Shown in pieces: positions 15,566 through 51,898 of a DNA stretch of 64,000 nucleotides. The first letter of the stretch is position 1. Each line of letters begins with the position of its first letter. This DNA comes from an uncultured Bryobacterales bacterium (lineage in GTDB: Bacteria; Acidobacteriota; Terriglobia; Bryobacterales; UBA6623): the NCBI GenBank assembly GCA_951813605.1, contig OX638379.1, positions 3,154,062-3,218,061 on the forward strand, in the 5' to 3' direction. The position numbers and the translations under genes were made by a program. The notes under the pieces are model-generated. The model made no database searches. It saw only the letters and a program-made list of their open reading frames with translations, and had not been told where the DNA came from.

Positions 15566-15777
15566 TCTCGGGCGAGCAACCACTGCCTATCAAGCTATCT
15601 CGTACGTCCACGAAAACGGGGCCAGTCCACTTCGCAACTGCAGGTGAGCCAGATCAAGCCTGCCTTGGCAGCGCCCGGCAGCGAACGTTGGCCGGTCCTG
15701 CCGGCGGCGGCCGTCATCGCCGTTGGGGTTATACTCACCGTCGTCGTTCGCTGGTGAGCATCGCCTGATAAGAGAGG

Positions 15778-16794: not shown

Positions 16795-17229
16795 GAGCTG
16801 CCCTTCAGGCCGATTGCGTGCGATGAACGGCTCGGCCCCTGCTGGCTCACCATTGGACACAATCGAGGAGAATCTTCCTTCCGCTGCGTGACGCGACGGC
16901 CATCCGCATCCAGTTCAGGTCGCGGAGCCACATGCTGCAGGACATTCAATCGCAACGTGCCGACATCGAGCCGGTCGAATCCAGGGATGCTGAAGCTGCA
17001 TGCCAGGCATTGCTGGTTGGGCTAGCGCGTTTGGAACGCCTGGCTTGCGGTACGGCCTTCGTGACGATGCGCCGGCAGGTGCAGCGGCCACAATTGGCGC
17101 AGCGGACGGGAGTCCTGTCTAGGCACGCCGCCGGGCGTCTCGACTTTCGGGAATGCAGACGGGCGAGGTGTTAGTGTGAGCCAAGGTCCGGTGAGTCCAG
17201 CTACGATGGGGGCGGCTTGTGAAACGGGA

Positions 17230-19764: not shown

Positions 19765-21220
19765 GCCCCGAAAGGCCCCCGTCCGCTTGTCGAAATCCCG
19801 ACGGGATTTCCTCTGTAGCGCCTGGAACGGCATCGGCAGCCTGGCCCTTCTCGACATTCTGGCCGACGAGCTGGAAGCTGGACCGCCTGCACTGAGCCCT
19901 CTCGCCCCCCGCGAGCCGCATCTGCGCCGCAAGGCCAAGCACTGCATCTTTCTCTTCATGGGCGGCGGCGTGAGTCACATCGAGTCCTTCGACTACAAAC
20001 CCGCTCTTCGGAAGTACGCGGGCGAGCGCCTCCCCCGTCCCGAGGGCCTGTCCGGCGAAGTGGCGACCGCGCTCGATGCGCCCCACACCGCAATGCCGTC
20101 GCTCTGGGATTTCAAGCAATATGGCGAGTCCGGCCGCCATGTATGCTCGCTCTTCCCGCATCTGGCCCAGCACGTCGATGAGATGGCGTTTGCCTACGGT
20201 ATCCGGCTTGACAACAACAATCACGGGCCGGCGACGCTGCACCTGAACACGGGCTCTCAATTCCCCGGAAGCCCCTCGGTAGGCTCTTGGATTGGCTATG
20301 GACTGGGCACCCCCAACCAAGACCTGCCCGGCTATGTGGTCATTCAGGATCCAAGAGGCGGGCCCGTCAACGGTTCGGCGGTTTGGGGCAACGGGTATCT
20401 TCCCGCCAGCTACCAAGGGGTCCGATTCCGCTCCTCCGGCCCCCCGATTCTCGATCTAGAGCGGCCAGCCGGCCTCTCCCGCGAGCAGCAGCGCAGGGAG
20501 TTCGACCTGCTGAAGTGGCTCAACACCAAGCACGGCGAGCAGCAGCCGGGCGCCTCCGAGCTCGAGGCCCGCATCAACGCCTACGAGTTGGCGTTTCGCA
20601 TGCAGACGGCAGCCCCGGAGGTGGTGGGCCTCGGCAGGGAATCCGAGGCGACTAAGAAGCTGTATGGCCTCGACAATCCCGACACCGCCGGGTTCGGGCG
20701 GCAATGTTTGCTGGCGAGGCGGCTGGTGGAGCAAGGCGTCCGCTACACGCTCTTGATTCACGGCGAGAGGATCGGTCAATCCAGTTGGGACCACCATACG
20801 GACGTCAAGGGCCGCATGCCCCAGAATGCGGTGGAGGTCGACAAGCCGGTGTCAGCCCTGCTCGCGGATCTGAAGAGCCGCGGCCTGCTCGAGGAGACGC
20901 TCGTCGTTTGGGCCTCTGAGATGGGCCGCACGCCCTACGTTCAGCAAAACGACACCCCGGACCCCAAGCCGGGCCGCGACCACAATCAGAACGCGCTCGT
21001 GATGTGGATGGCCGGAGGGGACGTCAAGGGCGGATCGTCGGTCGGTGCCACGGATGAATTCGGCATCGGCGGGATCAACCCCATTCCGCTCCACGACGTT
21101 CACGCAACGATCCTGGACCTTCTCGGCTTGGACGACAAGCGGCTGACCTACTTGCACCAGGGCCGATACCGCAAGCTGACGGATATCGGCGGGCACGTGC
21201 TCGGAGAGCTCATCGCGTGA
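19754..21220 (+). CDS. DUF1501 domain protein (Tat signal)
   Basis: SRRDFL; AKHCIFLFMGGGVSHIESFDYKP; GSWIGYGLG; FGRQCLLARRLVEQGVR; WDHH; EMGRTP; GRDHN. Overlaps the PSD1 gene end. Confidence 0.93.
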   Translation: MSTKPRKAPVRLSKSRRDFLCSAWNGIGSLALLDILADELEAGPPALSPLAPREPHLRRKAKHCIFLFMGGGVSHIESFDYKPALRKYAGERLPRPEGLSGEVATALDAPHTAMPSLWDFKQYGESGRHVCSLFPHLAQHVDEMAFAYGIRLDNNNHGPATLHLNTGSQFPGSPSVGSWIGYGLGTPNQDLPGYVVIQDPRGGPVNGSAVWGNGYLPASYQGVRFRSSGPPILDLERPAGLSREQQRREFDLLKWLNTKHGEQQPGASELEARINAYELAFRMQTAAPEVVGLGRESEATKKLYGLDNPDTAGFGRQCLLARRLVEQGVRYTLLIHGERIGQSSWDHHTDVKGRMPQNAVEVDKPVSALLADLKSRGLLEETLVVWASEMGRTPYVQQNDTPDPKPGRDHNQNALVMWMAGGDVKGGSSVGATDEFGIGGINPIPLHDVHATILDLLGLDDKRLTYLHQGRYRKLTDIGGHVLGELIA

Positions 21221-29868: not shown

Positions 29869-32800
29869 ATGCAACGCGCTTTCGCTTTGGGAGCATTCCT
29901 CTACAGTCTCTCGCTGCAGGGGCCGGCCTCGGGTGAGGAAGCCCAAGGCGCGGCGGTCCTGGAACGCCGCTGCCTACAGTGCCACGGCCCTGCAACCCAG
30001 ATGGGCGAGCTGGACCTGTCGTCCCGCGAAGGCGCGCTGAAGGGCGGCACGCGAGGCCCGGCTTTGGCGCCCTCCGATCCAGCCGGGAGCCTCCTGCTCT
30101 CCCGGGTGGCCGCGGAGGAGATGCCCCCGGAATCGCCCCTCTCCAGCAGCGACAAGGAAACGCTCCGGGAGTGGATCGCCTCGGGAGCGGCTTGGCCGGA
30201 ACGGATCGAAGAGCGCCGCGCGGGAACCGACTGGTGGTCGCTCCAGCCGCTGCGCGAACCGTCGCCCCCTCGCCCGCGAACGGCGACCCGGCAATGGATG
30301 GCGTCACCGGTCGACCGCTGGGTACTCGCCGGCCTTGAGGAAGCAGGCTTGCGACCCGCGCCGGAAGCCGGCCGGCGCGACCTCATTCGGAGAGCCTCGT
30401 TCGCCCTGACGGGCTTGCCCCCGGAGCCGGAGGAAGTGGATGCATTCGAGAAGGACAGTTCCCCGGACGCCTACGAAACGCTGTTGGACCGGCTCCTGGC
30501 CTCGCCGCGCTACGGGGAGCGCTGGGCCCGCCACTGGCTAGATCTCGTCCGGTACGCGGAAAGCGAAGGATTCGAGCGGGATCTTCCGCGCTATCACGCC
30601 TGGCCGTACCGCGACTACGTCATCCGCAGCTTCAACCGCGACAAGTCCTACCTGCAGTTCGCGCGCGAGCAGATGGCCGGCGACGTCATGGAGCCGGCGA
30701 CCCGCGACGGCGTGGTGGCGACAACCATGCTGACCCTCGGTCCGGTCGACGCCGTGGGCCTGACCTCCGCCATACCGCAAGAGCGGGCATCGATTCGAGA
30801 GGACATGCTGGAGGAGATGCTCGGCACCGTCACGCAGACCTTCCTGGGCCTCACGGTGAATTGCGCGCGCTGCCACGACCACAAATTCGATCCGATCCTC
30901 CAGGAAGAGTACTACCGGATGAAATCCGCCTTCCAAGCGGTATGGCCGCCGACGCGGCCTGTTCCAGAGCAGGGCCTCGATGTCCTGTTTCCCCACGGGA
31001 GCCCGCTGCTGGCCCCCGAGGAGAAGCGCTCGCGCGACGCGCGACGCGCCAGCCTCGAGAGCCGGACTGAGGCCGCCCGGGCCGCACTGGGCGACCTTTA
31101 TCGCGGCGCGCGACCGGCGGAGACCTTTGATGACGCGCCCGTCCCGCTGGCGCGCTGGACCTTCGAAACCGACGGCCGCGCCGATTTCGCGCCGCTCCAC
31201 CTGAAGCTGGTGGGCCAGGTGGAGACAAGCGAAGGGAAACTGCGCCGGAAAGCCCTTCCAGAGGATGCGCCCGGCGACGAGCTTGTCGAAGAGGACGGCC
31301 CCGACGGCGGGCCAGGTTTCGGCGTCAGCCGCATGTTGGGCAAGGAAATCAGGGCCAAGACGCTAGAGGCCTGGCTGGACGTGCAAGGCATGCCGGAGAC
31401 GGCTGCGACCGTGATGGAAATCCGCGGGCTGAGCGGATATCGCGGCGCCTCGGTCGACGGGATCCGATTCGTCGCCGGAGACAATCCTCGCTGGGACAAC
31501 AGCTCGATCGGGAGCTTCCGGTCCAAGGACACCGGCGGTCCGCCGGAGAAGTTCGAGCCCGGCGCGCAGGTTCACGTCGCCATCGCGTACGACGGGGACG
31601 GCACGATCACGGTGTTCCGTAACGGAGCGGTCTACGGGGAGCCCTACAAGCCCGACAACGGCATCCCCGCCGGGCGGCTGCAGGTCTATCGAGCCGGGGA
31701 CGCGCTGGTGCGCTTTCCCGCGAGCGAGCACTTGCATGTGGCTGAGGCGCGGCTCTACGACTTCGCCCTTTCGGGCGACGAAGTCGAGGCGTCGTTCCGC
31801 AAGGGAATTCGAGAATTCCCGCCGGCCGACCTGCTGGCTCGGATGAATTCCGCGGATAGCCGGCGGGTCGCGGAATTGGAAGAGGAGCTGGAAGGCTTGC
31901 GGCGCGAGCTCTCAAGCATTCCGGAGCCCGAGCTCGCGCACGGGGCCGTCATCCAGGGGGTAGAGCCCACCTACGTATTGATCCGCGGCTCCGTCGCCCA
32001 GCCGGGGAAGAGGGTCGAGGCCGCCGGCCTCTCCTGCGTCAGCGGCCTGTCTGCGGAGCTGGACCTAGCAGCGGATGCTTCCGAGGGGGCGCGCCGGAAG
32101 GCAATCGCGGAATGGATCGCGAACCCCCGAAACCCGCTATTCGCGCGGGTGATCGTCAATCGGCTGTGGCAGCAGCACCTCGGGCGCGGGTTCGTCGACA
32201 ATCCCAGCGACTTCGGTTACAACGGCGGCCCGCCGAGCCATCCGGAACTGCTGGACTGGCTGGCCTCCGACCTCGTGCGGAACGGCTGGAGCCTGAAGGC
32301 ATTGCACAAGCGCATCCTGATGTCCCGGACCTACAGGCAGGCCTCGCGGTTCGACGAGGCTGCCGCCTCGGCGGATGCCGACAATCGCCTTCTGTGGAGG
32401 TTCACGCCCCGCCGCCTTGATGCCGAATCGGTGCGGGACGGCATGCTGGCTGTGGCGGGCGACCTGAACGGCTCGATGCACGGGCCAAGCTTCCGTCCGT
32501 TTGAGTACGGTGAGAAGCGGGGGAGCCTCAAGAGCTACGTCCTGACCTCCGAGGACACCCCCGCGATGCGCCGCCGGACGGTCTACCGCATGAACGTCAT
32601 TACCGGCGGCGACCCCATGCTCGAGGCCCTCGACTGCCCGCTGCCCTCGGTGAAGGCTCCGCGCCGGCGGTCCACCACCACTGCCCTGCAGGCCCTCAGC
32701 CTGATGAACAATGCATTCGTCCAGCAGCGGGCCCGCGGGTTCGCCCGCCGCCTGCAGGAAGAGGCCTCGAGCCTCGACGGCAGGATCAGGCGGGCGTTCG

Positions 32801-32928
32801 ACCTGGCGTTCGGCCGCAAGCCGGACGACCGGGAGATGGATTCGAGCCGGCCGCTCGTGGAGCGGCACGGACTGGATGCTCTTTGCTGGGGCATCCTCAA
32901 TGCCAGCGAGTTCCTGTATGTCCGCTAG
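29869..32928 (+). CDS. Planctomycete cytochrome c + DUF1549 + LamG-like insert + DUF1553 protein
   Basis: CLQCH; [19 protein letters not shown]; CARCHDHKFDP; central KTLEAW...VHVAIAY...TVFRNG...EARLYDFALS (ConA/LamG-like); ARVIVNRLWQ; HPELLDWLA. Confidence 0.9.
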   Translation: MQRAFALGAFLYSLSLQGPASGEEAQGAAVLERRCLQCHGPATQMGELDLSSREGALKGGTRGPALAPSDPAGSLLLSRVAAEEMPPESPLSSSDKETLREWIASGAAWPERIEERRAGTDWWSLQPLREPSPPRPRTATRQWMASPVDRWVLAGLEEAGLRPAPEAGRRDLIRRASFALTGLPPEPEEVDAFEKDSSPDAYETLLDRLLASPRYGERWARHWLDLVRYAESEGFERDLPRYHAWPYRDYVIRSFNRDKSYLQFAREQMAGDVMEPATRDGVVATTMLTLGPVDAVGLTSAIPQERASIREDMLEEMLGTVTQTFLGLTVNCARCHDHKFDPILQEEYYRMKSAFQAVWPPTRPVPEQGLDVLFPHGSPLLAPEEKRSRDARRASLESRTEAARAALGDLYRGARPAETFDDAPVPLARWTFETDGRADFAPLHLKLVGQVETSEGKLRRKALPEDAPGDELVEEDGPDGGPGFGVSRMLGKEIRAKTLEAWLDVQGMPETAATVMEIRGLSGYRGASVDGIRFVAGDNPRWDNSSIGSFRSKDTGGPPEKFEPGAQVHVAIAYDGDGTITVFRNGAVYGEPYKPDNGIPAGRLQVYRAGDALVRFPASEHLHVAEARLYDFALSGDEVEASFRKGIREFPPADLLARMNSADSRRVAELEEELEGLRRELSSIPEPELAHGAVIQGVEPTYVLIRGSVAQPGKRVEAAGLSCVSGLSAELDLAADASEGARRKAIAEWIANPRNPLFARVIVNRLWQQHLGRGFVDNPSDFGYNGGPPSHPELLDWLASDLVRNGWSLKALHKRILMSRTYRQASRFDEAAASADADNRLLWRFTPRRLDAESVRDGMLAVAGDLNGSMHGPSFRPFEYGEKRGSLKSYVLTSEDTPAMRRRTVYRMNVITGGDPMLEALDCPLPSVKAPRRRSTTTALQALSLMNNAFVQQRARGFARRLQEEASSLDGRIRRAFDLAFGRKPDDREMDSSRPLVERHGLDALCWGILNASEFLYVR

Positions 32929-34324
32929 CACCACCCGCAGGCGCATGCTGCTGGATGCCGCCGGGGGCTTCGGGTGGGCTGCCCTGGCTTCCCTGCTGCC
33001 GCGGGAGGCGCTCGGCGCGTCGCCAGGAGAGCACAGCCCCTCGAAGGGACATCACTTCCCCGCCCGCGCCAAGCGGGTCATCCAGATCTTCGCGGTCGGC
33101 GGAATGAGCCACGTCGACACCTTCGACTTCAAGCCGGAGCTGCAGAAGCGGGACGGCACCCCCTATTCGATGCCGACCTTCTTCGGGCAGGGCGGGAATC
33201 TGCGCGGCTGCCCGTGGGAGTTCAGGCAGCACGGCGAGAGCGGCCTGTGGCTGAGCGGCCTCCTGCCGCAGCTTTCGAAGCAGGCGGACAGGCTCACCGT
33301 GGTTCAAAGCATGGTCTCCAAGAGCGCGAACCACATGCCGGCGGTGGCTCAGATGAACACCGGATTCATCCTGACCGGCTTCCCGGCCATGGGGGCGTGG
33401 GTGACGTACGGGCTCGGGTCGGAGAACGAGAACCTGCCCGCTTTCGTCGTTCTGCCCGACCCGAACAGCCACCCTTGGGGCGGCTCGGCGCAATGGACCA
33501 ACGGCTTTCTCCCGGCGGCCGTGCAAGGCACGGCGTTCCGGACGCACGCCGACGGGGATCCCGTGCCGGACCTGAAGACTCCGGAGGGGGTTTCCGGCGA
33601 GGCGCGCGCGGACGCCGCGAGATGGTTGCGCGAGATGAACCGCAGGTACGCGGAGGCCCATCCCGGCGATTCGAGCCTCGAGGCCCGAGTCCGCATGTAC
33701 GAGATCGCCGCCAAGATGCAGCTCAGCGTGCCCGAGATCGCGGACCTCAACCTCGAATCGGAAGCGACCCGGCGCCTGTACGGGCACGGCGAGGAGGGCA
33801 CTGCGGATCTGGCGAAGAATTGCCTGCTGGCCCGCCGGCTAGTCGAGCGCGGCGTGCGGTTCGTGCAGATCTACCACGGCGGCGCGGGCAAGAGCTGGGA
33901 CGCGCACGGCAACTTGGTCACCAACCACGAGGAGATGGCGCTGGAATACGACCGGCCCGTTGCCGGCCTTGTGGAGGACCTGCACGCCCGGGGCCTGCTG
34001 GAGGACACGCTGGTCCTCGGCGTGACGGAATTCGGTCGCACGCCCGTATCGCAGGGAAGCGGCAAGACTGCGGGCCGCGACCACCACCCCAGCTGCTTCA
34101 GCTGCTGGATGGCAGGAGCCGGGCTGCCGTCCGGCAGGACCTACGGCCTGTCGGACGACCTGGGCTACAAGCCGGCGGAGAATCCGGTCACGATCTACGA
34201 CCTGCATGCAACCGCGCTGCACCTGCTAGGACTCGACCACGAGCGGCTGACCTTCTATCACAACGGCATCAACCGCCGCCTGACGGACGTGCACGGAAGA
34301 GTCGTCGAGGGATTGCTTGGCTGA
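32918..34324 (+). CDS. DUF1501 domain protein (Tat-like signal)
   Basis: TRRRML; AKRVIQIFAVGGMSHVDTFDFKP; GAWVTYGLG; CLLARRLVERGVRFVQ; EFGRTP; GRDHH. ATG at 32918 overlaps the upstream gene. Confidence 0.92.
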   Translation: MSASTTRRRMLLDAAGGFGWAALASLLPREALGASPGEHSPSKGHHFPARAKRVIQIFAVGGMSHVDTFDFKPELQKRDGTPYSMPTFFGQGGNLRGCPWEFRQHGESGLWLSGLLPQLSKQADRLTVVQSMVSKSANHMPAVAQMNTGFILTGFPAMGAWVTYGLGSENENLPAFVVLPDPNSHPWGGSAQWTNGFLPAAVQGTAFRTHADGDPVPDLKTPEGVSGEARADAARWLREMNRRYAEAHPGDSSLEARVRMYEIAAKMQLSVPEIADLNLESEATRRLYGHGEEGTADLAKNCLLARRLVERGVRFVQIYHGGAGKSWDAHGNLVTNHEEMALEYDRPVAGLVEDLHARGLLEDTLVLGVTEFGRTPVSQGSGKTAGRDHHPSCFSCWMAGAGLPSGRTYGLSDDLGYKPAENPVTIYDLHATALHLLGLDHERLTFYHNGINRRLTDVHGRVVEGLLG

Positions 34325-34475: not shown

Positions 34476-35273
34476 ATGGTGAAGACCGAGCGCGAGCACG
34501 CCGCCGACATAGTCCGTGTCGGCAAGCTAGTTTTCGACAAGGGCTGGGTTGCCGCCAACGATGGCAACATCTCGATCCGCCTTGACGATGAGCGCATCAT
34601 GTGCACGCCGACCGGCGTGTCGAAGGGCATGCTGCATATCGACGACATCATCATCGTCGACTATGCGGGGGAAAAGGTCTCCGGGCGCATGCAGCGCACC
34701 TCCGAGATCAAGATGCACCTGAAGATCTACGAGATTCGGGAGGACATCGATTCCGTGGTCCACGCGCACCCGCCGGTCGCCACGGGATTCGCGGCGGCCG
34801 GCAGGGCGCTGGACACGGCGCTGCTTCCGGAAGTCGTGATCGGGCTGGGCTGCGTGCCCCTGGCGGCGTACGGGCTGCCCGGCACCGACGCCCTGACCGA
34901 GCCGATGCTGCCGCTGATCCCTCGCTACGACGCCCTGCTTCTTGGCAATCACGGCGCCGTCAGCTACGGCACCGACGTCCTGCAGGCGTACTTCCGCATG
35001 GAGACGGTGGAGCATTTCGCCCGCATCAACTTCGTCGCCGAGATGCTGGGCGGAGCCCGCGCGCTGCCGCGCCTGGAAGTGGACAAGCTGTTCGAATCGC
35101 GGGGGCGCTACGGAGTGGCCTCGAAGGCTACGCAGCAGCCGGGCTGCCCGGTTTCAGCGGAGGATGTCGCCCAGTCGGCACCGGACAGCCAAATGGGCGA
35201 CAATGGTTTCTACGTCACCCGGGACGAATTGATCCAGTTGCTGGAAGACGCGATCCGGGCCAGAGGAGGATGA
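34476..35273 (+). CDS. Class II aldolase/adducin-family protein (FucA-like), BMC-associated
   Basis: [38 protein letters not shown] (Zn ligands); extra C-terminal linker and helix. Confidence 0.92.
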
Positions 35274-35280
35274 TCGATTC

Positions 35281-35562
35281 ATGGGTGAGGCCCTCGGATT
35301 AATTGAAACGCGGGGATTCGTCTCGCTAGTCGAGTCCGCCGACGCCGCCGTGAAGGCGGCAAACGTCACGCTGGTCGGATGGGAGAAGATCGGATCCGGC
35401 TACGTCACAGTTCTGATGCGCGGCGACGTGGCTGCGGTCAAGGCGGCAACTGACGCCGGGGCCGCCGCGGCCCGGCGCGTCGGCGAGCTGATCTCCGTCC
35501 ACGTCATTCCGCGCCCGCACGGCAACTTGGACCAGATCTTCGCCATTTCGCCCTCCGAGTAG
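35281..35562 (+). CDS. BMC-H shell hexamer protein (PduA/EutM-like)
   Basis: ALGLIETRG...[10 protein letters not shown]...[21 protein letters not shown]...SVHVIPRPH. Confidence 0.97.
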
Positions 35563-35598
35563 CGGAGGCTGCATCCCGAACGGGAGACGCTGGGCTCT

Positions 35599-35877
35599 AT
35601 GCTTCTGGCGCGAGTCGTGGGCAATGTCGTAGCCACGCGTAAGGATCCGAGGCTGGAGGGCAAGAAGCTGCTGGTCCTGCAGCACGTCGCTCCGGACGGC
35701 AGGTCCCGCGACAGCTACGTGGTAGCGCTTGACACGGTCGGAGCCGGAGCCCGGGAAACCGTGATTTGCGTCTCCGGCAGTTCCGCCCGCATGGCAAGCG
35801 GCATGAAGGGCACCCCGGTCGACACGGCCGTCGTAGGCATCGTAGATGACGTGAACCTGCTTCCCGGAGGCAGCTGA
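35599..35877 (+). CDS. BMC-P vertex pentamer (EutN/CcmL family) 1
   Basis: MLLARVVGNVVATRKD..LEGKKLL...VVALDTVGAG..ETV...GSSAR...PVDTAVVGIVD. Confidence 0.95.
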   Translation: MLLARVVGNVVATRKDPRLEGKKLLVLQHVAPDGRSRDSYVVALDTVGAGARETVICVSGSSARMASGMKGTPVDTAVVGIVDDVNLLPGGS

Positions 35878-36146
35878 TGCACTTGGGGCGGGTCATCGGG
35901 AATGTGTGCGCGACGGTCAAGGACCCGCAGCTCGAAGGAGTGAAGCTCCTCCTCGTCCAGCCCTTGAACGCTGACGGTACCAACACGGGCATCCCTATTG
36001 TGGCGCTGGATGCGGTGGGCGCGGGGGCCGGGGAGACAGTCTACTGGTCGGGGCGGCGCGAAGCGTGCCTGGCGTTCGATCCCCAAGTGCCGTCGGATGC
36101 GAGCGTGACCGGGATCGTCGATACGGTGTCAGGGCCGGGGCCATGA
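35877..36146 (+). CDS. BMC-P vertex pentamer (EutN/CcmL family) 2
   Basis: MHLGRVIGNVCATVKD..LEGVKLLLVQP...IVALDAVGAG.GETV...DASVTGIVD; TGATG coupling. Confidence 0.95.
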   Translation: MHLGRVIGNVCATVKDPQLEGVKLLLVQPLNADGTNTGIPIVALDAVGAGAGETVYWSGRREACLAFDPQVPSDASVTGIVDTVSGPGP

Positions 36147-36424
36147 TCCTCAGCAAGGTCGTGGGCGACGTGGTCTCGACGTGCAAGCATCCTACGCACG
36201 AGGCGATCAAGCTGCTCCTGGTACGGCGGATCAATGCCGAAGGAGAGGAGCGCGGGGCGCCGTTGGTGGCCGTGGACGTGCTCGATGCGGGCGTCGGGGA
36301 CACCGTGCTGCTCACGCTTGACGGCTGGGCGGCGATGACCGCCGTGCAACGCATGAAGGCGCCGATCGATGCCGCCGTGATCGCCATCGTTGACTCCATT
36401 GAATGGGACGGCGGGGAGCCTTGA
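36143..36424 (+). CDS. BMC-P vertex pentamer (EutN/CcmL family) 3
   Basis: MILSKVVGDVVSTCKH...KLLLV...VAVDVLDAGVGDTVL...PIDAAVIAIVD; ATGA overlap (track ORF starts 36065). Confidence 0.93.
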   Translation: MILSKVVGDVVSTCKHPTHEAIKLLLVRRINAEGEERGAPLVAVDVLDAGVGDTVLLTLDGWAAMTAVQRMKAPIDAAVIAIVDSIEWDGGEP

Positions 36425-36464: not shown

Positions 36465-37679
36465 ATGCGGCGCGTCAGCCGTCGGTGGTTTCTAGCCGCG
36501 GCGACTTCTTCGGCGGCGGGGTCGGCGGCGAGCCGGGGCACTCGCATCGACACTCCCCGCGAGAAACTCCTCGACAGCCTCACCGAGCGCGAGCTCTTCC
36601 GCTTGACGGATCTGGCGGTTCTGCACCACCTGCCGGGCCACCAGCATCGCTTCATCGCCCGCAACAACTCGTTCCTGCTGGTCGCCGCCGAGCACGAAGG
36701 CGAGCGCCAGATCCACCGGCTTGACCTGAAGCGGAGGCGCCTGACGCAACTGACCGAGGGCGGCAGGGTGCATCCCTACGCCGCCCACCTCCGCGCCAAC
36801 GACCGGGGCTTCTACTATCTCCAGGGGAGCGACCTCATCCAGGCGGACATGAATGGCGGCAGCCGGCGGAAGCACTACAGCTGCCCGGCAGGGTGGGTGC
36901 TGACGGGGGACATGGACATCTCGCGCGGCGAGCGCTACGCCGCCCTTGTCGAGATGGGCGCGGAGCACGTGGAGCCGACCCGGGCGCTGCAGTTCGAACG
37001 CGAGCCGCCGTGCCGCATCCGCATCGTGGAAATCGTCCGGCAGGGGGCTCGGGGCCGCAGCTGGATCGCGGCGGAAGAGCGGCGCTGGCTCTCGACGCCT
37101 AGGTTCCGTCCATGGCGCTCGCAAGTGCTCTACGCGCGCGAAGGCCCGTGGCACAAGGTGCGGCGCCGGCTGCAGCTAGTCAATCTGGACGGGACGGGGA
37201 AGGCAAGCGTGCGCCCGACCAGGGGCGAGGAAAGACTGGGGCAGGCCTACTGGCCGCCCGACGGAGCGCGCCTGCGGTTCGTGCATTTCCCGGATGCGAA
37301 CGGCTGGAGAGCCACCATCCGCAGCATCCAGCCCGAAACTCGGCAAGAAACGACCGACGCGCCGTGCTCGTCGTTCGGCTGGCTGGAAGAGAACTCCGAC
37401 GGCTCCGTCATCGTGGGAGCGAGCAGGCGTCCGTCAGGACCTAATCTGTACGTGCTCTTCCCGAGAATGCGCCGGGAGATCACCCTCTGCGAGCACCGCA
37501 GCAGCCTGGAGCCGTACCCCATCGCGGGCACCGACCGCATCGACCCGTTCTCGGCAGTGCCCGACCCGGCCCTGTCGGAGGACAGCGCGTGGCTCTACTT
37601 CGTAACCGACAGGGAAGGCATGCCCGCGCTGTACGCGATGCCGGTCGACGATCTCGTCGAAGCCACAGTGCAGCGCTGA
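36465..37679 (+). CDS. Tat-exported beta-propeller, oligogalacturonate lyase-like
   Basis: SRRWFL signal; DSLTERELFRLTD, LDLKRRRLTQLT, H..W.PDG, PDPALSED...LYF.TDREG.PALY. Catalytic residues could not be verified. Confidence 0.65.
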   Translation: MRRVSRRWFLAAATSSAAGSAASRGTRIDTPREKLLDSLTERELFRLTDLAVLHHLPGHQHRFIARNNSFLLVAAEHEGERQIHRLDLKRRRLTQLTEGGRVHPYAAHLRANDRGFYYLQGSDLIQADMNGGSRRKHYSCPAGWVLTGDMDISRGERYAALVEMGAEHVEPTRALQFEREPPCRIRIVEIVRQGARGRSWIAAEERRWLSTPRFRPWRSQVLYAREGPWHKVRRRLQLVNLDGTGKASVRPTRGEERLGQAYWPPDGARLRFVHFPDANGWRATIRSIQPETRQETTDAPCSSFGWLEENSDGSVIVGASRRPSGPNLYVLFPRMRREITLCEHRSSLEPYPIAGTDRIDPFSAVPDPALSEDSAWLYFVTDREGMPALYAMPVDDLVEATVQR

Positions 37680-38060: not shown

Positions 38061-39542
38061 TTGGCGAGCCTAGACTCTGAATTCCGCGACAACGAGATCC
38101 TGCTTACCGGGGCCAACGGCTTCCTAGGCAAGGTCATTCTGGCATTGCTGCTGGACCGCTTCCCTGATGTGCGGCGGGTCCACGTGCTGGTCAGGCCGAG
38201 GCCCGGCCTGCCGAGCGAAGAGCGCTTCGCGACGGAAGTTCTGGACTCCCCGCCTCTTGGCCCCTTGGTCGAGAAGCTCGGCAGGGAGACCGTCGAGGGC
38301 CGCGTGAACGTCCTTTCCGGCGACGCCTCCAGGCCGCGCGCCGGGCTTGGCCCCGACCAGGTGCGCGATCTGGCTGGGCGGGTAGGCCTCGTGCTCAACT
38401 GCGCCGGCCTCGTCGAGTTCTTCCCTCCGGTGGATCTGTCCCTGCGGGCGAATGTCGATTCGGTCGAGCGCCTGCTGGAACTCTGCGACGAGCTTGACGC
38501 AAAGCTGCTGCACGTCTCGACCTGCTACGTGGCCGGAAAGGCCGACGGCTTGGTCGAGGAGACCGAGCCGATACTGGGCTTTCATCCGCGACGCACGGGC
38601 CCGGGCGATGACCGGTTCCGCGCCGACATCGAACTGGCGGACATTCGTGCCGCTGCCGACGCCCTGGCGCAAGGCATTGAGGGCGCCCAGCGGGCCGAGG
38701 CCCTGACCGAGCTCGGACGCGTCCGCGCCGCGCGGTGGGGCTGGGTGAATACGTACACGTTTACCAAGAGCCTCGGCGAGCAAGTTCTCGCCGCCCAGGA
38801 CTCGGTGCCGTACGCGATCGTCCGCCCGGCGATCGTCGAAAGCTCCCTGCGCTACCCGTTCCCGGGCTGGATCGAGGGCGGGCGGACGGCAGCGCCCCTC
38901 GCCCTCATGGCGCTGGGCGGCTTGCTCGACTGGCCGGCTCGCCGCGACATTTCGCTCGAGATCGTTCCCGTGGACCTCGTCGCCGCTGCGACGCTGGCGG
39001 TGGCGGGGGAACTGCTGGCGGGACGCGCGCGACAGGTCTACCACTTGGCCGGGTCGGATGTGAACCCGTATCCGCTGGAAGACTTGATCCGCCTGCTGTG
39101 CGCCGAGGCGAGAGCCAACGGCAACCGCGTCACCCACCCGCCCTTCTGGCTCGATCCATTCCCCCGCCTGCGATTCCTGGACTCTTCCGGGGCGGAGCGC
39201 CGCCGGCGCGCCCAGCGCCGCCGCATCGCCGTCGCGCGGAGGATCATGGAACGTCTCGGCCGGAGCGCCCGCGCTGCCCGCCTGCGCGTCCTCGAGCTGC
39301 AGCTCGGCTTCCACGAGGAGACCTTCCGGCAGTACATGCCGTTCATCCTCGACAATCGATACGTATTCGAGACCGTCAACATACGAGCGACCTACGCCGG
39401 GCTTTCACCGCGAGACCGGCAGGCCCTGCCGTGGGATCCCGAATCGATCGACTGGCCCGTATACTGGCGGAGCTGCCAAATCCCCGGCATTCGCAAGTGG
39501 ATTCAGCCGGAGGCGGTGCGAGAATGGACGTTTCAGCTCTAG
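38061..39542 (+). CDS. Fatty acyl-CoA reductase-like protein (NAD_binding_4 / male-sterility family)
   Basis: LLTGANGFLGK, HVSTCYV, WGWVNTYTFTKSLGE (YxxxK), IVRPAIVES, VPVDLVA; helical C-terminal domain ending DW..Y...GIRKW. Confidence 0.82.
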   Translation: MASLDSEFRDNEILLTGANGFLGKVILALLLDRFPDVRRVHVLVRPRPGLPSEERFATEVLDSPPLGPLVEKLGRETVEGRVNVLSGDASRPRAGLGPDQVRDLAGRVGLVLNCAGLVEFFPPVDLSLRANVDSVERLLELCDELDAKLLHVSTCYVAGKADGLVEETEPILGFHPRRTGPGDDRFRADIELADIRAAADALAQGIEGAQRAEALTELGRVRAARWGWVNTYTFTKSLGEQVLAAQDSVPYAIVRPAIVESSLRYPFPGWIEGGRTAAPLALMALGGLLDWPARRDISLEIVPVDLVAAATLAVAGELLAGRARQVYHLAGSDVNPYPLEDLIRLLCAEARANGNRVTHPPFWLDPFPRLRFLDSSGAERRRRAQRRRIAVARRIMERLGRSARAARLRVLELQLGFHEETFRQYMPFILDNRYVFETVNIRATYAGLSPRDRQALPWDPESIDWPVYWRSCQIPGIRKWIQPEAVREWTFQL

Positions 39543-39569
39543 GCTCCCCGCAATGAGGCACGGGGCGTA

Positions 39570-40619
39570 ATGAATCCAGTTGACCTGCGCAGCGACACGG
39601 TAACCCGGCCGACGCCCGAGATGCGCCGGGCCATGTACGAAGCCCAGGTCGGCGACGACGTCTTCGGCGAGGACCCGTCGGTCAACGCGCTGGAGGAGCG
39701 CGGCGCCGCGATCGCGGGCAAGGAAGCGGCTGTCTTCGTCCCCTCGGGAACGATGGGCAACCAGATCGCCATCGCGGTCCACACCTCTCCCGGCCAGGAG
39801 ATCATCTGCGAGGAGCACTCCCATGTCGTGCTGTACGAGATGGGCATGCTGGCGCGCCTGTCCGGATGCGTGGCCCGGACAGTGGCGACGACGGACGGGC
39901 GCCTCGACTGGGAAAGCGTCCGGCCCCGCGTGCGAGGGAGTTCGGACCACTTCCGCGGCACGGGGCTGGTCGAGGTCGAGAACACGCACAACTACGCAGG
40001 CGGTCGAGCGTACTCGATGGAATCGCTAGCTCAGCTTCGCGCCGGAACCCGCGCAGCCGGCCTGGCGGTGCATATGGACGGCGCGCGGGTCTTTCACGCC
40101 GCGGCCGCGCTGGGCGTGCCCGTGCGGGAGATCGCAGCGACCGCGGACTCGCTGACCTTCTGCCTCTCGAAGGGCCTGGGGGCCCCGGTCGGATCCGTTC
40201 TCACCGGCAGCCGCGCGTTCATCAACGAGGCGCGGCTGGCGCGAAAAGCCCTCGGCGGAGGCATGCGGCAAGCGGGCGTCCTGGCCGCGGCCGGCCTGGT
40301 CGCGCTCGAACGCAGCCCCGCCAACATCCCTGCAGTTCACGCCGACGCGAAGTTCCTGGCGCGGGAGCTGGCCGCAATTCCGGGCATCGCAATCGATCCT
40401 GCCGCGGTGGAGACCAACATCGTGTTCTACGACGTCGCCGGAACCGGGCTGTCCGCCAAGCAGTTCGTCGGATCGCTCCGCGAGTCGGGGGTTCTCGCGC
40501 TCGCCCTGGGGCCGACGCGGATCCGCATGGTGACGCATCAGGACGTGAATCGCGCGGACTGCGAGAAAGCGGCGGCGGCGATCAAGAGCGCTTGCGCGAG
40601 CCCGGCGATCGCGTATTGA
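39570..40619 (+). CDS. ltaE: Low-specificity L-threonine aldolase (PLP)
   Basis: DLRSDTVTRPT, GDDVFGEDPSV, ENTHN.AGG, HMDGARVF, FCLSKGLGAPVGS, GGGMRQAG. Confidence 0.93.
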   Translation: MNPVDLRSDTVTRPTPEMRRAMYEAQVGDDVFGEDPSVNALEERGAAIAGKEAAVFVPSGTMGNQIAIAVHTSPGQEIICEEHSHVVLYEMGMLARLSGCVARTVATTDGRLDWESVRPRVRGSSDHFRGTGLVEVENTHNYAGGRAYSMESLAQLRAGTRAAGLAVHMDGARVFHAAAALGVPVREIAATADSLTFCLSKGLGAPVGSVLTGSRAFINEARLARKALGGGMRQAGVLAAAGLVALERSPANIPAVHADAKFLARELAAIPGIAIDPAAVETNIVFYDVAGTGLSAKQFVGSLRESGVLALALGPTRIRMVTHQDVNRADCEKAAAAIKSACASPAIAY

Positions 40620-41884: not shown

Positions 41885-43354
41885 ATGAAACGCGCTCTTT
41901 TTCTGCTTGTCGTCCTGGCATTCCTTCCGTCTTGCGCCCAGTCGCCAGCCGACCCGCCGAACATCGTGTGGATCTTCTCCGAGGACCAGTCGGACGATTA
42001 CGGCCCGTACGGAGAGTCGCTCGCCAAGACGCCCCATATCGACAAGATGGCGGCGGAGGGAGCGATGTTCACGCGGGCCTTCGTCACCGCCCCGGTTTGC
42101 TCGCCGTCGCGGTCCGCGCTGGTCACCGGCATGTACCAGACCACGATCGGCGCGCACAACCACCGCAGCGGCAGGGGAGAGCGGAAGATCCGCCTGCCCG
42201 GGGACGTCGAGCCCGTCCCGTCGATCCTGCGGCGGGCCGGCTACTACGTGACCAACGGAGGGTACCGCGAAAACGGCAATCTGGCCCGGGGCAAGACGGA
42301 CTACAACTTCGAGTACGCCGAGGATCTGTACGACGGGGCCGACTGGTCCGGACGAGCCGGGGGGCAGCCCTTCTTCGCTCAAGTCCAGTTGCGAGGCGGC
42401 AAGCTGCGCAACCAGCGCACGCTGGAACCGCGCGAAGGCGTGCGCACCAACGGCATTCCCCCGGACAAGGTCCAGCTGCCGCCCTATTACCCTGACCATC
42501 CCGAGCTGCGCGCGGACTGGGCGCAATATCTCGAGTCGGTGGAGCACGTCGACTGGGAGGTCGGGCAGATCCTCGCGCGCCTGGAGGAGGAGGGCGTCGC
42601 GGACAACACCGTCGTTTTCTTCCTCACGGACCACGGCGTGAGCCACGCGCGCGGCAAGCAATTCCTCAGCGAAGAGGGCATCAAGGTGCCGCTGATCGTG
42701 CGAGCGCCGGGCCGTATCGAGCCGGGCATGGTGCGCGAAGACCTCGTGGCCCATATCGACGTGGCAGCGTCCTCGCTCGCATTCGCCGGCATCGAGATCC
42801 CCGGCTGGATGGAAGGCCGGCCGCTGTTCGGGCCGCAAGCCGAGCCGCGCGATTACGTCGTCTCGGCACGGGACCGCTGCGACGAGACCGTGGACCGCAT
42901 CCGCAGCGTGCGCACTGCCCGATTCAAGTACATCCGCAACTTCGTGCCGGAGCGGCCGCACCTGCAACCCAATCGCTACAAGGACAGCAAGGCCATCATC
43001 AAGGCGCTCCGCGGCTTGCGGGCCGAAGGCGGCCTGTCCCCGGAGATCGAGAAGATGCTTTACGCGCCCCGACCGGAGGAAGAGCTCTATGACCTTGCGG
43101 AGGACCCTTGGGAAATGACCAACCTCGCCGGCGACAGCGAGCACGAGAAGACGCTTCTGGAAATGCGCTCGATTCTGGAGCGCTGGGTCGAGCAAACCGG
43201 GGACCGGGGCCAAGTCTTCGAGACTGCGGCGGAATACGGCTCGGACATGGCGGCGTACCGGCGCGGCCAGCAAGGGCCCCAAGCGGAGATTCTCGAGCGG
43301 AACATCGCCGACGTCGAGGCTTGGCGGGCAATGCGAGCAGGCGCGGGCCAGTGA
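41885..43354 (+). CDS. Cys-type sulfatase (probable lipoprotein)
   Basis: LAFLPSC lipobox-like; PNIVWIFSEDQ, CSPSRSALVTG, DHG, RDRCDE, EELYDL.EDP.E. Confidence 0.93.
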   Translation: MKRALFLLVVLAFLPSCAQSPADPPNIVWIFSEDQSDDYGPYGESLAKTPHIDKMAAEGAMFTRAFVTAPVCSPSRSALVTGMYQTTIGAHNHRSGRGERKIRLPGDVEPVPSILRRAGYYVTNGGYRENGNLARGKTDYNFEYAEDLYDGADWSGRAGGQPFFAQVQLRGGKLRNQRTLEPREGVRTNGIPPDKVQLPPYYPDHPELRADWAQYLESVEHVDWEVGQILARLEEEGVADNTVVFFLTDHGVSHARGKQFLSEEGIKVPLIVRAPGRIEPGMVREDLVAHIDVAASSLAFAGIEIPGWMEGRPLFGPQAEPRDYVVSARDRCDETVDRIRSVRTARFKYIRNFVPERPHLQPNRYKDSKAIIKALRGLRAEGGLSPEIEKMLYAPRPEEELYDLAEDPWEMTNLAGDSEHEKTLLEMRSILERWVEQTGDRGQVFETAAEYGSDMAAYRRGQQGPQAEILERNIADVEAWRAMRAGAGQ

Positions 43355-48190: not shown

Positions 48191-49570
48191 TCAGCGGTAG
48201 GGGAGATCGGACCGCTCGGCCCAGCTATCGCCAGTCCGCTCGAACCACTCCATCGTGAGCGCGTCGAGCCGTGCCTGCAGTTCCGCATGCTGCGGCTTGC
48301 CTGCCAAGTTGTCCATCTGGAACGGATCCTCGGCGTTGTCGTAAAGCAGCCAGGGCTCGTTCTCGCGCCTCGCGTAGGTGTAGCGCTCCGTGCGCAGTCC
48401 CCGCCAGGGGGGAAACTGCGATTGCTCGGTCGGAGTGTAGCTCTGCGCGTACACGGACTCGGGAGCGTCCGCTCCGGGGGTGCCGCCATGCTCGGGCGCT
48501 AGCAGGTGCGCGGAGAGATCGAGCCCCGAAATCCCGTCCGGGCTCGGCATCCGCGCCATGCCCAGCAGTGTCGGCACGATGTCGACGTGCGAGAAAGGCA
48601 GCGAGAGGCTCCGGCCGGCCGGCACGGCCGCGGGGTAGTGCAAGATGCCCGGCACCTGGAGCGATTCCGCCCACGGCTTGCGCTTGAGGACCGTTCCATG
48701 GGAGCCGAGCATGTCTCCGTGGTCCGAGGTGATCAGGATGATCGTGTTCTCGAACTGCCCGGTCTCCTTGAGGGCTTCGACAATGCGTCCCACCTCGTCG
48801 TCCAGAAAGGTGATCGCGGCGTAGTAGCCGGCAATGTCCTGGCGGCTGCCCCTGGCGGGTCTGGGACCTCGCTCGACGGGCCCTTTCCAGTTGGCTCGCA
48901 TCTTGAGCATGTCCGGGTCGTAAAGGTTCATGTACCGGGGCGGCGCGACGTAGGGATTGTGCGGCGGGCCCCACTGGACGTATCCCAGGAACGCCTTCGA
49001 GGGGTCCTGGCGAATGAAGTCGATTGCCTCGTCGGTGAAGGTCGAGGCCGAATAGCCGTTGATCGGAATCGGCTCCGGATCGTCCCGGAAGTACTCCATG
49101 TTCCAGTACCTGTGCGAGCAGATGTTGGCCGCCCAGAACTCGAAGCCCTGCCGTCTTTCCTGCTTGACAAACCCCGGCAGGCGCTTGCCGCCTTCCAAAT
49201 GCCACTTGCCGACAAAGCCGGTGCGGTAGCCGTTGTCGCGCGCTACCTCGGCGATGGTGACTTCCTTGTCCGGCAAGGGCGCGTCATTGACGTCGACGCC
49301 GTGCTCGTGGCCGAACCGGCCAGTCAGCAGCGTGGCGCGCGCCGGGCAGCAGACCGGGCAGTTGGCCGTCACGTTGCGCAGCAGGGCGCCGCCCGCGGCG
49401 AGGGCGTCCATGTTCGGCGTCTTCACCTCGGCGTTGCCCATGGCGCCGAGATCCATCGCCCGCCACTGGTCGGGCATCAGCACGAGGATGTTGGGCTTCG
49501 CGAGCTGGGGGCCGCACGCGCCTGCCAGGGCCCCTCCGGCAGCTGCCAGGAAAGTCCGTCGGTTAAGCAT
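48191..49570 (-). CDS. Cys-type sulfatase (Tat signal)
   Basis: NRRTFL; PNIL.LMPDQWR, CCPARATLLTG, GKWHL, TSDHGDMLGSHG. Confidence 0.93.
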   Translation of the reverse strand: MLNRRTFLAAAGGALAGACGPQLAKPNILVLMPDQWRAMDLGAMGNAEVKTPNMDALAAGGALLRNVTANCPVCCPARATLLTGRFGHEHGVDVNDAPLPDKEVTIAEVARDNGYRTGFVGKWHLEGGKRLPGFVKQERRQGFEFWAANICSHRYWNMEYFRDDPEPIPINGYSASTFTDEAIDFIRQDPSKAFLGYVQWGPPHNPYVAPPRYMNLYDPDMLKMRANWKGPVERGPRPARGSRQDIAGYYAAITFLDDEVGRIVEALKETGQFENTIILITSDHGDMLGSHGTVLKRKPWAESLQVPGILHYPAAVPAGRSLSLPFSHVDIVPTLLGMARMPSPDGISGLDLSAHLLAPEHGGTPGADAPESVYAQSYTPTEQSQFPPWRGLRTERYTYARRENEPWLLYDNAEDPFQMDNLAGKPQHAELQARLDALTMEWFERTGDSWAERSDLPYR

Positions 49571-51885: not shown

Positions 51886-51898
51886 TCTGCCAGCACCC

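What the first reader, a model, noticed from the sequence alone, without database searches (positions are those of the whole stretch)
34476..36424. Minimal microcompartment locus: aldolase + one hexamer + three distinct pentamers, no aldehyde dehydrogenase
Seen: a tightly coupled aldolase, BMC-H and three BMC-P genes, with no AldDH, AlcDH, PTAC or BMC-T nearby. Established: metabolosomes normally encode AldDH, and pentamers are minor shell parts. BMC-P triplets with a class II aldolase are known from PVM loci and, from recall, from the uncharacterised acidobacterial (ACI) type. Inference: an organelle of unknown substrate, possibly with heteromeric vertices or small pentamer-rich shells.
Basis: partly seen in the sequence, partly recalled or inferred. 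Interest (0 to 1): 0.75.

Follow-up and report, generated by a model that had tools for sequence, protein, structure and literature searches.

The report
Acidobacterial microcompartment shell-plus-aldolase cassette
This is a real, intact five-gene operon for a bacterial microcompartment (a tagged aldolase, one shell hexamer, three shell pentamers), but it matches a type already catalogued in Acidobacteria, where the missing aldehyde dehydrogenase is normally encoded elsewhere in the genome.

Summary
The window carries aldolase_II (34476-35273), BMC-H (35281-35562) and three BMC-P genes (35599-36424), tightly coupled. No AldDH, PTAC, AlcDH, 2-hydroxyacid dehydrogenase or BMC-T occurs anywhere in the 64 kb.

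The organism is a Bryobacterales acidobacterium. The same five genes, in the same order, were found in 81 loci from genomes and metagenomes, with aldolase identity of 47-93% and unrelated flanks. All five genes are under purifying selection. The aldolase carries a conserved C-terminal amphipathic helix behind a variable linker, which is an encapsulation peptide. Orthologues in loci with no shell genes at the same chromosomal site lack this helix.

Published catalogues already hold this kind. [quoted passage not shown] Sutter 2021 types Solibacterales shell proteins as 'ACI' and states that the ACI AldDH is consistently on a satellite locus. In Solibacter and Bryobacteraceae relatives I found the complementary module without pentamers: PTAC, BMC-T, BMC-H, AldDH and a second aldolase.

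I could not test whether this genome or its closest relatives carry such a satellite. The aldolase is not a plain FucA, and its substrate is unknown. Verdict: a new member of a known, still uncharacterised kind, of modest interest.

The parts
34476..35273 (+). Class II aldolase (PF00596), 265 aa. This is the predicted encapsulated signature enzyme. The catalytic core is about residues 1-215.
   Evidence: Pfam E 8.5e-41. The zinc and catalytic motifs are visible: TSE(77), H96-A-H98 and N-H159-G. It scores below all NCBIfam equivalog cut-offs; the best are OtnC at 115 bits (cut-off 250) and FucA_Meth at 108 bits (cut-off 250). The best solved structure is 6voq 'Aldolase' (E 1.5e-24); FucA entries score E 1e-13 to 1e-22. 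It is 33-37% identical to the PVM-like aldolases of L073 and L074. dN/dS is 0.06-0.15.
35121..35207 (+). Linker of the aldolase C-terminal extension, residues about 216-244. It holds a conserved PGCPvsAED motif followed by 10-15 variable residues rich in Ala, Gly, Pro and Gln.
   Evidence: Alignment of 54 orthologues. The AlphaFold model has low confidence for residues 207-247, but the model is poor overall.
35208..35264 (+). Encapsulation-peptide-like amphipathic helix, F245-R263 ([19 protein letters not shown]).
   Evidence: The motif F.VTRdELiqL.EeAiRA is conserved in 54 of 54 cassette orthologues behind the variable linker. The model predicts a helix at 249-262, with mean pLDDT of 75 and 67 for the last two sequence blocks, against 39-47 for the five blocks before them. 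Orthologues that are 66-67% identical and have no shell genes (L050, L121, L127, L131) end before this helix.
35281..35562 (+). BMC-H, the canonical facet hexamer, 93 aa.
   Evidence: Pfam E 2.2e-30. It passes the NCBIfam EutM equivalog cut-off (134.2 bits, cut-off 133). The KAAN, IGSGY (pore) and PRPH motifs are visible in the sequence. It is 69% identical to E. coli EutM. The best solved structures are EutM, HO-5815 and PduA. dN/dS is 0.02-0.09.
35599..35877 (+). BMC-P paralogue 1 (vertex pentamer), 92 aa.
   Evidence: Pfam E 1.3e-29. Positional orthology holds in 56 of 56 loci, with median identity of 78%. The best solved structure is the Haliangium ochraceum BMC-P, 5v74.
35877..36146 (+). 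BMC-P paralogue 2, 89 aa. Its start overlaps the stop codon of paralogue 1 by 1 nt.
   Evidence: Pfam E 2.8e-25. Positional orthology holds in 56 of 56 loci, with median identity of 72%. The best solved structure is 5v74. dN/dS is 0.06-0.14.
36143..36424 (+). BMC-P paralogue 3, 93 aa. Its start overlaps the end of paralogue 2 (ATGA).
   Evidence: Pfam E 2e-23. Positional orthology holds in 56 of 56 loci, with median identity of 70%. The best solved structure is 5v74. dN/dS is 0.10-0.22.

Best explanation
The five genes form one operon. It supplies the pentamer-containing half of a dispersed metabolosome of the acidobacterial ACI / 'PVM-like' kind.

Shown here:
- BMC-H is a canonical facet hexamer.
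- The three BMC-P genes are three old paralogue lineages, each separately maintained. They most likely cap the vertices.
- The aldolase carries a C-terminal encapsulation peptide, so it is the cargo that this cassette brings into the shell.

Inferred:
- Inside the shell, the zinc-dependent class II aldolase splits a ketose phosphate into DHAP and an aldehyde. By analogy with PVM and GRM5, the substrate would be a 6-deoxy-ketose 1-phosphate such as fuculose-1-P or rhamnulose-1-P, giving lactaldehyde.
- The shell retains the aldehyde.
- An encapsulated CoA-acylating AldDH encoded elsewhere in the genome oxidises it. PTAC, further BMC-H or BMC-T proteins and a cofactor-recycling enzyme would also be encoded elsewhere.
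- The cassette behaves as a self-contained module, because its flanks differ between clades.
For: - Domains and coupling of the five genes.
- The same gene order in 51 of 66 genome loci from Bryobacterales and other Acidobacteriota. Across genome and metagenome loci together, 81 loci have BMC-H directly downstream of the aldolase.
- The flanks are unrelated between clades.
- P1, P2 and P3 keep positional orthology in 56 of 56 loci.
- dN/dS is 0.02-0.22 for all five genes.
- The encapsulation peptide helix is conserved behind a variable linker. It is absent from 66-67% identical orthologues that have no shell genes, at least two of which (L050, L131) sit next to the same rhomboid gene.
- The ACI description matches: a pfam00596 aldolase with a C-terminal encapsulation peptide, a contiguous BMC-P triplet, one canonical BMC-H, and the AldDH on a satellite locus.
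- The Sutter trees label the Solibacter Ellin6076 and Sulfopaludibacter BMC-T genes as ACI satellite, and BMC-P and BMC-T genes of unclassified Solibacterales as ACI main and ACI satellite.
- Axen 2014 describes two aldolase-containing PVM-like loci in S. usitatus, one without BMC-P and one with BMC-P outnumbering BMC-H. The genome holds 3 BMC-H, 3 BMC-T and 3 BMC-P over 5 loci, plus two BMC-linked AldDHs.
- The complementary module without pentamers (PTAC, BMC-T, BMC-H, AldDH with an N-terminal encapsulation peptide, and an aldolase) occurs in Solibacter-like and Bryobacteraceae contigs.
Against: - No AldDH, PTAC or BMC-T could be shown for this genome or its closest clade. None lies in the 64-kb window or within 10 kb of any cassette I checked.
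- The 2-hydroxyacid dehydrogenase and the three unknown proteins described for the ACI main locus are absent here. They were also absent near every related cassette tested.
- The substrate is inferred by analogy only. The aldolase matches no characterised equivalog, and its neighbours give no pathway clue.
Confidence: 0.7

Rival explanations
1. The cassette is a self-sufficient minimal organelle. One hexamer plus pentamers form small closed shells around the aldolase alone, and no AldDH is involved.
For: - No other BMC or AldDH gene lies in the window or within 10 kb of any of about 80 cassettes.
- No close PVM-like AldDH was seen on the complete chromosomes of the window's clade.
- From my own knowledge, not tested here: synthetic shells made of only BMC-H and BMC-P can close.
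Against: - The catalogued type keeps its AldDH on satellite loci.
- Solibacter relatives have additional BMC-H, BMC-T, AldDH and PTAC modules.
- From general knowledge of metabolosomes: an aldolase alone, releasing a free aldehyde inside a shell with no consuming enzyme, has no obvious benefit.
- The AldDH search was truncated at 70% identity, so absence is not shown.
Confidence: 0.12
2. The downstream neighbours are the functional partners. These are the thioester reductase that resembles a fatty acyl-CoA reductase (FAR) (38061-39542) and the GntG/threonine-aldolase-like PLP aldolase (39570-40619). They would replace AldDH, handling or generating the aldehyde.
For: - Cassette, oligogalacturonate-lyase-like gene, reductase, PLP aldolase, unknown gene and sulfatase keep their order in many close relatives.
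- Both enzyme classes handle aldehydes.
Against: - The synteny is confined to the close clade. It is lost within 10 kb in L019 (the closest relative, 93% aldolase identity), L003, L011, L033 and L024-L031, and it is interrupted by insertions in L001, L022 and L052.
- Neither protein has an N- or C-terminal extension or an encapsulation-peptide-like helix.
- The intervening gene, which resembles oligogalacturonate lyase, has a twin-arginine export signal (MRRVSRRWFLAAA) and is therefore exported.
Confidence: 0.05
3. The aldolase is an ordinary cytosolic FucA-type enzyme that merely sits next to the shell genes. The shell serves other cargo.
For: It belongs to the class II aldolase family, with FucA among the solved relatives. 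Versions without the encapsulation peptide exist in genomes that show no shell genes nearby.
Against: - The C-terminal helix is conserved in all 54 cassette orthologues and missing when shell genes are missing.
- The aldolase always lies within about 10-250 nt of BMC-H.
- It scores below every FucA equivalog cut-off.
Confidence: 0.05
4. The cassette is a decaying remnant of a once complete PVM-type locus.
For: Enzymes are missing locally. Insertion-sequence elements occur elsewhere in the window.
Against: All five reading frames are intact in more than 80 loci. dN/dS is 0.02-0.22, and gene order is strictly kept over aldolase divergence down to 47% identity.
Confidence: 0.03

Closest known systems
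ACI-type BMC (Sutter et al. 2021, Nat Commun 12:3809; PMC8217296)
   Same: - It is confined to Acidobacteria.
- It has a pfam00596 aldolase with a C-terminal encapsulation peptide.
- It has one BMC-H with the standard KAAN and PRPH motifs and a contiguous BMC-P triplet.
- No AldDH lies in the main locus.
- Shell proteins of Solibacterales, which correspond to Bryobacterales, are typed ACI in that paper's trees.
   Different: - The described main locus also holds a 2-hydroxyacid dehydrogenase and three unknown proteins. None is in this window or near any of about 80 related cassettes.
- ACI is reported mainly from subdivisions 4 and 6, whereas this organism is Bryobacterales (subdivision 3, from my own knowledge of the taxonomy).
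- The satellite AldDH could not be checked for this genome.
'PVM-like' loci of Candidatus Solibacter usitatus Ellin6076 (Axen et al. 2014; PMC4207490)
   Same: - It is a relative in the same order.
[quoted passage not shown]
- A second locus has an aldolase but no BMC-P.
- The authors proposed that the two loci together build one organelle.
   Different: I did not retrieve the S. usitatus cassette itself. The module without pentamers (PTAC, BMC-T, BMC-H, AldDH, aldolase) was seen only in Solibacter-like and Bryobacteraceae contigs, not in the window's clade.
PVM BMC of Planctomycetes and Verrucomicrobia (L-fucose / L-rhamnose metabolosome)
   Same: It has a class II aldolase as signature enzyme and a BMC-P triplet with few BMC-H genes. 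Here the genomic setting is rich in sulfatases and PSCyt/DUF1501 genes.
   Different: - PVM loci are contiguous, with AldDH, PTAC, acetate kinase, a dehydrogenase and a DeoR regulator. An acidobacterial example is L074.
- None of these is present here.
- The window aldolase is only 33-37% identical to the PVM-like aldolases of L073 and L074.
HO BMC shell of Haliangium ochraceum (PDB 5v74)
   Same: Its BMC-P is the best solved match for all three pentamer paralogues, and HO-5815 is among the best matches for the BMC-H. HO loci also carry a BMC-P triplet.
   Different: HO loci contain AldDH and BMC-T proteins and occur in Myxobacteria. The resemblance here is in sequence only.

Membership tests
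ACI BMC (Sutter 2021) | Found in Acidobacteria | tested here: met
   The closest loci are Bryobacterales, Terriglobia and Acidobacteriota MAGs, with aldolase identity up to 93%. Named protein hits are from Bryobacterales and Bryobacteraceae.
ACI BMC (Sutter 2021) | pfam00596 aldolase with a C-terminal encapsulation peptide | tested here: met
   PF00596, E 8.5e-41. A conserved amphipathic helix at residues 245-263 follows a variable linker in 54 of 54 orthologues. The helix is predicted in the model. It is absent from orthologues in loci without shell genes.
ACI BMC (Sutter 2021) | Contiguous BMC-P triplet plus at least one BMC-H with standard interface motifs in the main locus | tested here: met
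   Three adjacent PF03319 genes and one PF00936 gene with KAAN and PRPH motifs. I could not assign the triplet to the green, grey and orange clades because the BMC Caller HMMs were not available.
ACI BMC (Sutter 2021) | [quoted passage not shown] | tested here: not met
   There is no 2-Hacid_dh in the Pfam scans of the window. tblastn with LdhA and SerA found none in the window or next to the cassette in related loci. No small ORFs lie between the cassette genes.
ACI BMC (Sutter 2021) | Encapsulation-peptide-bearing AldDH on a satellite locus | not testable with these tools
   Only 64 kb of this genome is available, and only 10 kb on each side of related loci could be fetched. The local absence of AldDH is consistent with the feature.
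PVM BMC | One locus with aldolase, AldDH, PTAC, acetate kinase, a dehydrogenase and a DeoR regulator | tested here: not met
   Only the aldolase is present. tblastn with AldDH, PTAC and AckA from L073 and L074 gave no hit in the window, and Pfam found no DeoR regulator.
PVM BMC | Host in Planctomycetes or Verrucomicrobia | tested here: not met
   All close relatives are Acidobacteriota.
L-fuculose-phosphate aldolase (FucA equivalog) | Score above the curated family cut-off | tested here: not met
   TIGR01086 fucA scores 59.8 bits against a cut-off of 400. NF005302 scores 103 against 264. FucA_Meth scores 108 against 250.

The most novel reading that the evidence does not exclude
In the clade to which this window belongs, the five-gene cassette may be the entire organelle. 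That would be a metabolosome-like compartment built from one hexamer and three pentamers, enclosing only a class II aldolase of unknown substrate and working without any encapsulated aldehyde dehydrogenase. Alternatively it might use non-canonical partners such as the neighbouring thioester reductase, which resembles a fatty acyl-CoA reductase.
Probability: 0.1. Interest if true: 0.7.

Novelty: new member of a known kind. Interest (0 to 1): 0.3.

Why it matters
The ACI / PVM-like acidobacterial microcompartment is common in an abundant and poorly cultured phylum, and its function is still unknown. This window adds one more member.

The comparison also shows that the aldolase, BMC-H and BMC-P triplet unit is a strictly conserved, self-contained module that sits in many different genomic contexts. 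In Solibacter and Bryobacteraceae, a second module (PTAC, BMC-T, BMC-H, AldDH, aldolase) carries the parts this one lacks.

That gives a clear target for reconstitution: four shell genes and a tagged aldolase. It also gives natural controls without the encapsulation peptide for testing encapsulation. It does not reveal a new kind of organelle.

Tried and rejected
- **Satellite AldDH in the window's clade.** I used the S. usitatus 'PVLike' AldDH from the Axen 2014 supplement as query. All 120 listed hits were at least 70% identical Solibacter-type proteins. None lay on the complete chromosomes that carry close cassettes, so the test is inconclusive.
- **Paralogous BMC-H from satellites.** The BMC-H search was saturated by orthologues of at least 83% identity.
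- **Co-occurrence in one assembly.** Look-ups for the P0195, P0117 and P0269 proteins returned different assemblies.
- **Source contig.** The window's exact aldolase sequence is not in the contig index.
- **Canonical ACI loci.** The metagenome scan was meant to reach ACI main loci with a 2-hydroxyacid dehydrogenase. It found only more five-gene cassettes and solitary aldolases.
- **AldDH next to some cassettes.** The AldDH-like hit beside the cassette in L038-L041 and L049 is a housekeeping-type methylmalonate-semialdehyde dehydrogenase without an encapsulation peptide. I rejected it as a BMC partner.
- **Neighbours of aldolase orthologues without the encapsulation peptide.** These were a rhomboid gene, an ORF I read from its translation as imidazolonepropionase-like, and ilvBNC-like ORFs, none checked against a family library. 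They gave no clue to the substrate.
- **Regulatory elements.** Promoter, terminator and Rfam scans around the operon gave nothing above background.
- **Structure model.** The AlphaFold model was poor (mean pLDDT 54). I used it only for the terminal helix and ran no fold search.
Full report
**1. Observation**

The window region 34476-36424 holds five genes on the + strand. They are a 265-aa class II aldolase (PF00596, E 8.5e-41), a 93-aa BMC-H (PF00936, E 2.2e-30) and three BMC-P genes of 92, 89 and 93 aa (PF03319, E 1e-29 to 2e-23). The gaps between genes are 7 and 36 nt, and the three pentamer genes overlap (TGATG and ATGA). The third pentamer starts at the ATG at 36143, not at the upstream GTG of the mechanical ORF.

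The pentamers are 39-51% identical to each other. BMC-H has the KAAN, GSG-pore and PRPH motifs and passes the NCBIfam EutM cut-off.

Pfam scans of the remaining likely genes of the 64-kb window found no aldehyde dehydrogenase, PTAC, Fe-alcohol dehydrogenase, 2-hydroxyacid dehydrogenase, PduS or further shell gene. tblastn with reference AldDH, PTAC, PduS, AckA, FucO, EutG, LdhA, SerA, EutM and EutN found none either.

**2. Organism and conservation**

The closest aldolase relatives (up to 93% identity) and BMC-H relatives (up to 100% identity) come from Bryobacterales, Terriglobia and Acidobacteriota MAGs.

In one-genome-per-species contigs, 51 of 66 loci found with the aldolase carry the same five genes in the same order. 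None has any other shell gene or a BMC-type AldDH within 10 kb. A metagenome scan extended this to cassettes whose aldolase is only 47-50% identical. Counting loci with a complete aldolase and enough downstream sequence, 81 have BMC-H directly downstream.

The flanks differ between clades: a rhomboid gene, a PIN domain gene, ankyrin repeats, a glutamate-dehydrogenase-like ORF (read from its translation), or the PSCyt/DUF1501 pair seen here. The cassette is therefore a self-contained module.

In 56 of 56 loci, the first, second and third pentamer gene is each most similar to the window's P1, P2 and P3 respectively. Identity is 50-92% to the positional orthologue and 30-54% to the paralogues. 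Pairwise dN/dS against five relatives is 0.02-0.22 for all five genes, although dS is near saturation. All three pentamers are therefore maintained by selection.

**3. The aldolase and its tail**

The catalytic core keeps the zinc histidines and the Ser-Glu motif of FucA-type enzymes. However, it matches no characterised equivalog. Its best NCBIfam scores are 3-oxo-tetronate-4-P decarboxylase at 115 bits (cut-off 250), FucA_Meth at 108 (cut-off 250) and TIGR01086 fucA at 60 (cut-off 400). The best solved structure is 6voq (E 1.5e-24), and E. coli FucA scores about 1e-13. It is 33-37% identical to the longer aldolases of PVM-like loci. It is not a plain FucA, and its substrate cannot be read from the sequence.

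Beyond residue 215 there is a conserved PGCPvsAED motif, then a variable stretch of 10-15 residues, then a conserved amphipathic helix, F.VTRdELiqL.EeAiRA. This arrangement is present in all 54 cassette orthologues aligned. A shallow-alignment AlphaFold model was poor overall (mean pLDDT 54). Even so, it predicts a helix at 249-262 with higher confidence than the preceding linker.

Natural controls support the reading as an encapsulation peptide. Orthologues that are 66-67% identical and have no shell genes within the available flanks (L050, L121, L127, L131) end just before the helix. L050 and L131 sit next to the same rhomboid gene that flanks the cassette in L067 and L069. Some other acidobacterial orthologues keep the helix but have no shell gene within 10 kb (L110, L128, L139, L155, L156). 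This fits a dispersed organisation of BMC genes in this phylum.

**4. Neighbours**

The gene after P3 resembles oligogalacturonate lyase (PF14583). It has a twin-arginine signal (MRRVSRRWFLAAA) when read from 36465, so it is exported and is not cargo.

The thioester reductase at 38061-39542, which resembles a fatty acyl-CoA reductase (FAR), and the GntG-family PLP aldolase at 39570-40619 follow the cassette in many close relatives. They are absent within 10 kb in the closest relative (L019) and in several others. They also lack terminal extensions. I treat them as inherited gene order, not as partners.

**5. What is known**

Sutter et al. 2021 define the ACI type as follows:
- 125 loci, found only in Acidobacteria.
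- A pfam00596 aldolase with a C-terminal encapsulation peptide.
- A 2-hydroxyacid dehydrogenase and three unknown proteins.
- One canonical BMC-H and a contiguous BMC-P triplet.

Their trees label the BMC-T genes of Ca. Solibacter Ellin6076 and Ca. Sulfopaludibacter SbA3 as ACI satellite. They label a BMC-P and a BMC-T of two unclassified Solibacterales MAGs as ACI main and ACI satellite. They also note that BMC-P most often occurs singly or as a triplet.

Axen et al. 2014 listed S. usitatus with 5 BMC loci, 3 BMC-H, 3 BMC-T and 3 BMC-P. [quoted passage not shown] They proposed that the two together build one organelle.

Using the S. usitatus AldDH from that paper's supplement, I retrieved the module without pentamers. 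It consists of PTAC, a BMC-T of 182-192 aa, a BMC-H of 89 aa, an AldDH with an N-terminal encapsulation peptide, and an aldolase of 346-353 aa. It occurs in a Solibacter-like 5.3-Mb contig and a Bryobacteraceae MAG, again with unrelated flanks. A Terracidiphilus contig shows the undivided PVM-type arrangement.

**6. Interpretation**

The best reading is that this cassette is the pentamer-plus-aldolase half of a dispersed ACI / PVM-like metabolosome. The shell roles and the tagging of the aldolase are supported directly by sequence and comparison. The chemistry is inferred by analogy: a ketose phosphate split into DHAP and an aldehyde, with the aldehyde oxidised by an encapsulated AldDH. The existence of the other half in this genome is also inferred.

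The main gap is that I could not show an AldDH or further shell genes for the window's own clade. The AldDH search listed only hits of at least 70% identity, none on the relevant complete chromosomes, and the tools do not allow whole-genome access. A self-sufficient, aldolase-only compartment is therefore not excluded, and I give it about 0.1.

The locus also lacks the 2-hydroxyacid dehydrogenase and the unknown proteins of the published ACI description. So do all related cassettes examined. It is best described as the reduced Solibacterales/Bryobacterales form of that type rather than a textbook ACI main locus.

**7. Verdict**

This is a real, functional-looking operon. It is a new member of a known, catalogued but functionally uncharacterised kind. 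Its 'minimal organelle without AldDH' inference is not supported, though not strictly refuted for this genome. Interest is modest (0.3).

Noticed in passing
window 17176-21220 and 29869-34324: Two gene pairs of a PSCyt1/DUF1549/DUF1553 protein followed by a DUF1501 protein. The second pair lies directly upstream of the cassette. Only L012 and L044 share this upstream pair.
   Followed up: partly
window 13202-14890 (-), 41885-43354 (+), 48191-49570 (-): Three sulfatase genes (PF00884 plus SGSH_C) in 64 kb. Together with the exported protein at 36465-37679 that resembles oligogalacturonate lyase, they suggest use of sulfated polysaccharides.
   Followed up: no
window 51037-52837 (-) and 8138-9403 (+): An L-fucono-1,5-lactonase-like amidohydrolase (277 bits, cut-off 400) lies next to an aldo-keto reductase. 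Separately, there is an L-rhamnonate-dehydratase-like enolase-superfamily protein (245 bits, cut-off 393). These hint at non-phosphorylative 6-deoxyhexose catabolism in the same region.
   Followed up: partly
window 38061-40619: A thioester reductase resembling a fatty acyl-CoA reductase (NAD_binding_4 plus Sterile domains) sits directly upstream of a GntG-family PLP-dependent aldolase (399 bits, above the cut-off of 230). The pair is conserved in many close relatives. Its function is unknown.
   Followed up: partly
window 2151-2483 (-), 3309-4712 (-), 7412-7948 (+), 15278-15757 (+): A DUF5615/PIN-like gene, a complete DDE_Tnp_1_4 transposase, a transposase fragment and a short DruA-like (Druantia) fragment. 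G+C is lower (0.60-0.63) around 4-14 kb.
   Followed up: no
L050 7852-8562; L121, L127, L131: Aldolase orthologues of 236-239 aa, 66-67% identical to the window's, that lack the terminal helix and have no shell genes nearby. In L050 and L131 they sit next to the same rhomboid gene that flanks the cassette in L067 and L069, and ilvBNC-like ORFs (read from their translations) follow the aldolase in L050, L121 and L127. This suggests loss, or gain, of the shell genes and the tag together.
   Followed up: partly
L073 8178-12481; L168 and L169 4425-8502: A second conserved five-gene module without any BMC-P: PTAC, BMC-T, BMC-H, AldDH (N-terminal encapsulation peptide) and an aldolase of 346-353 aa with an encapsulation-peptide-like C-terminus. 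It occurs in Solibacter-like and Bryobacteraceae contigs with unrelated flanks.
   Followed up: partly
L038-L041, L049 (e.g. L039 12294-13763): A methylmalonate-semialdehyde-dehydrogenase-type AldDH lies directly downstream of the cassette in one Bryobacterales clade. It has no encapsulation peptide, so the adjacency is probably coincidental, although the enzyme is CoA-acylating.
   Followed up: partly
L054, L055 (Gemmatimonadota); L061, L063 (Bacteroidota, Ignavibacteria): More distant aldolase homologues (43-47% identical) also end in encapsulation-peptide-like helices, yet have no shell gene within the fetched flanks. This resembles the fragmented (FRAG) BMC organisation described by Sutter 2021.
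   Followed up: no
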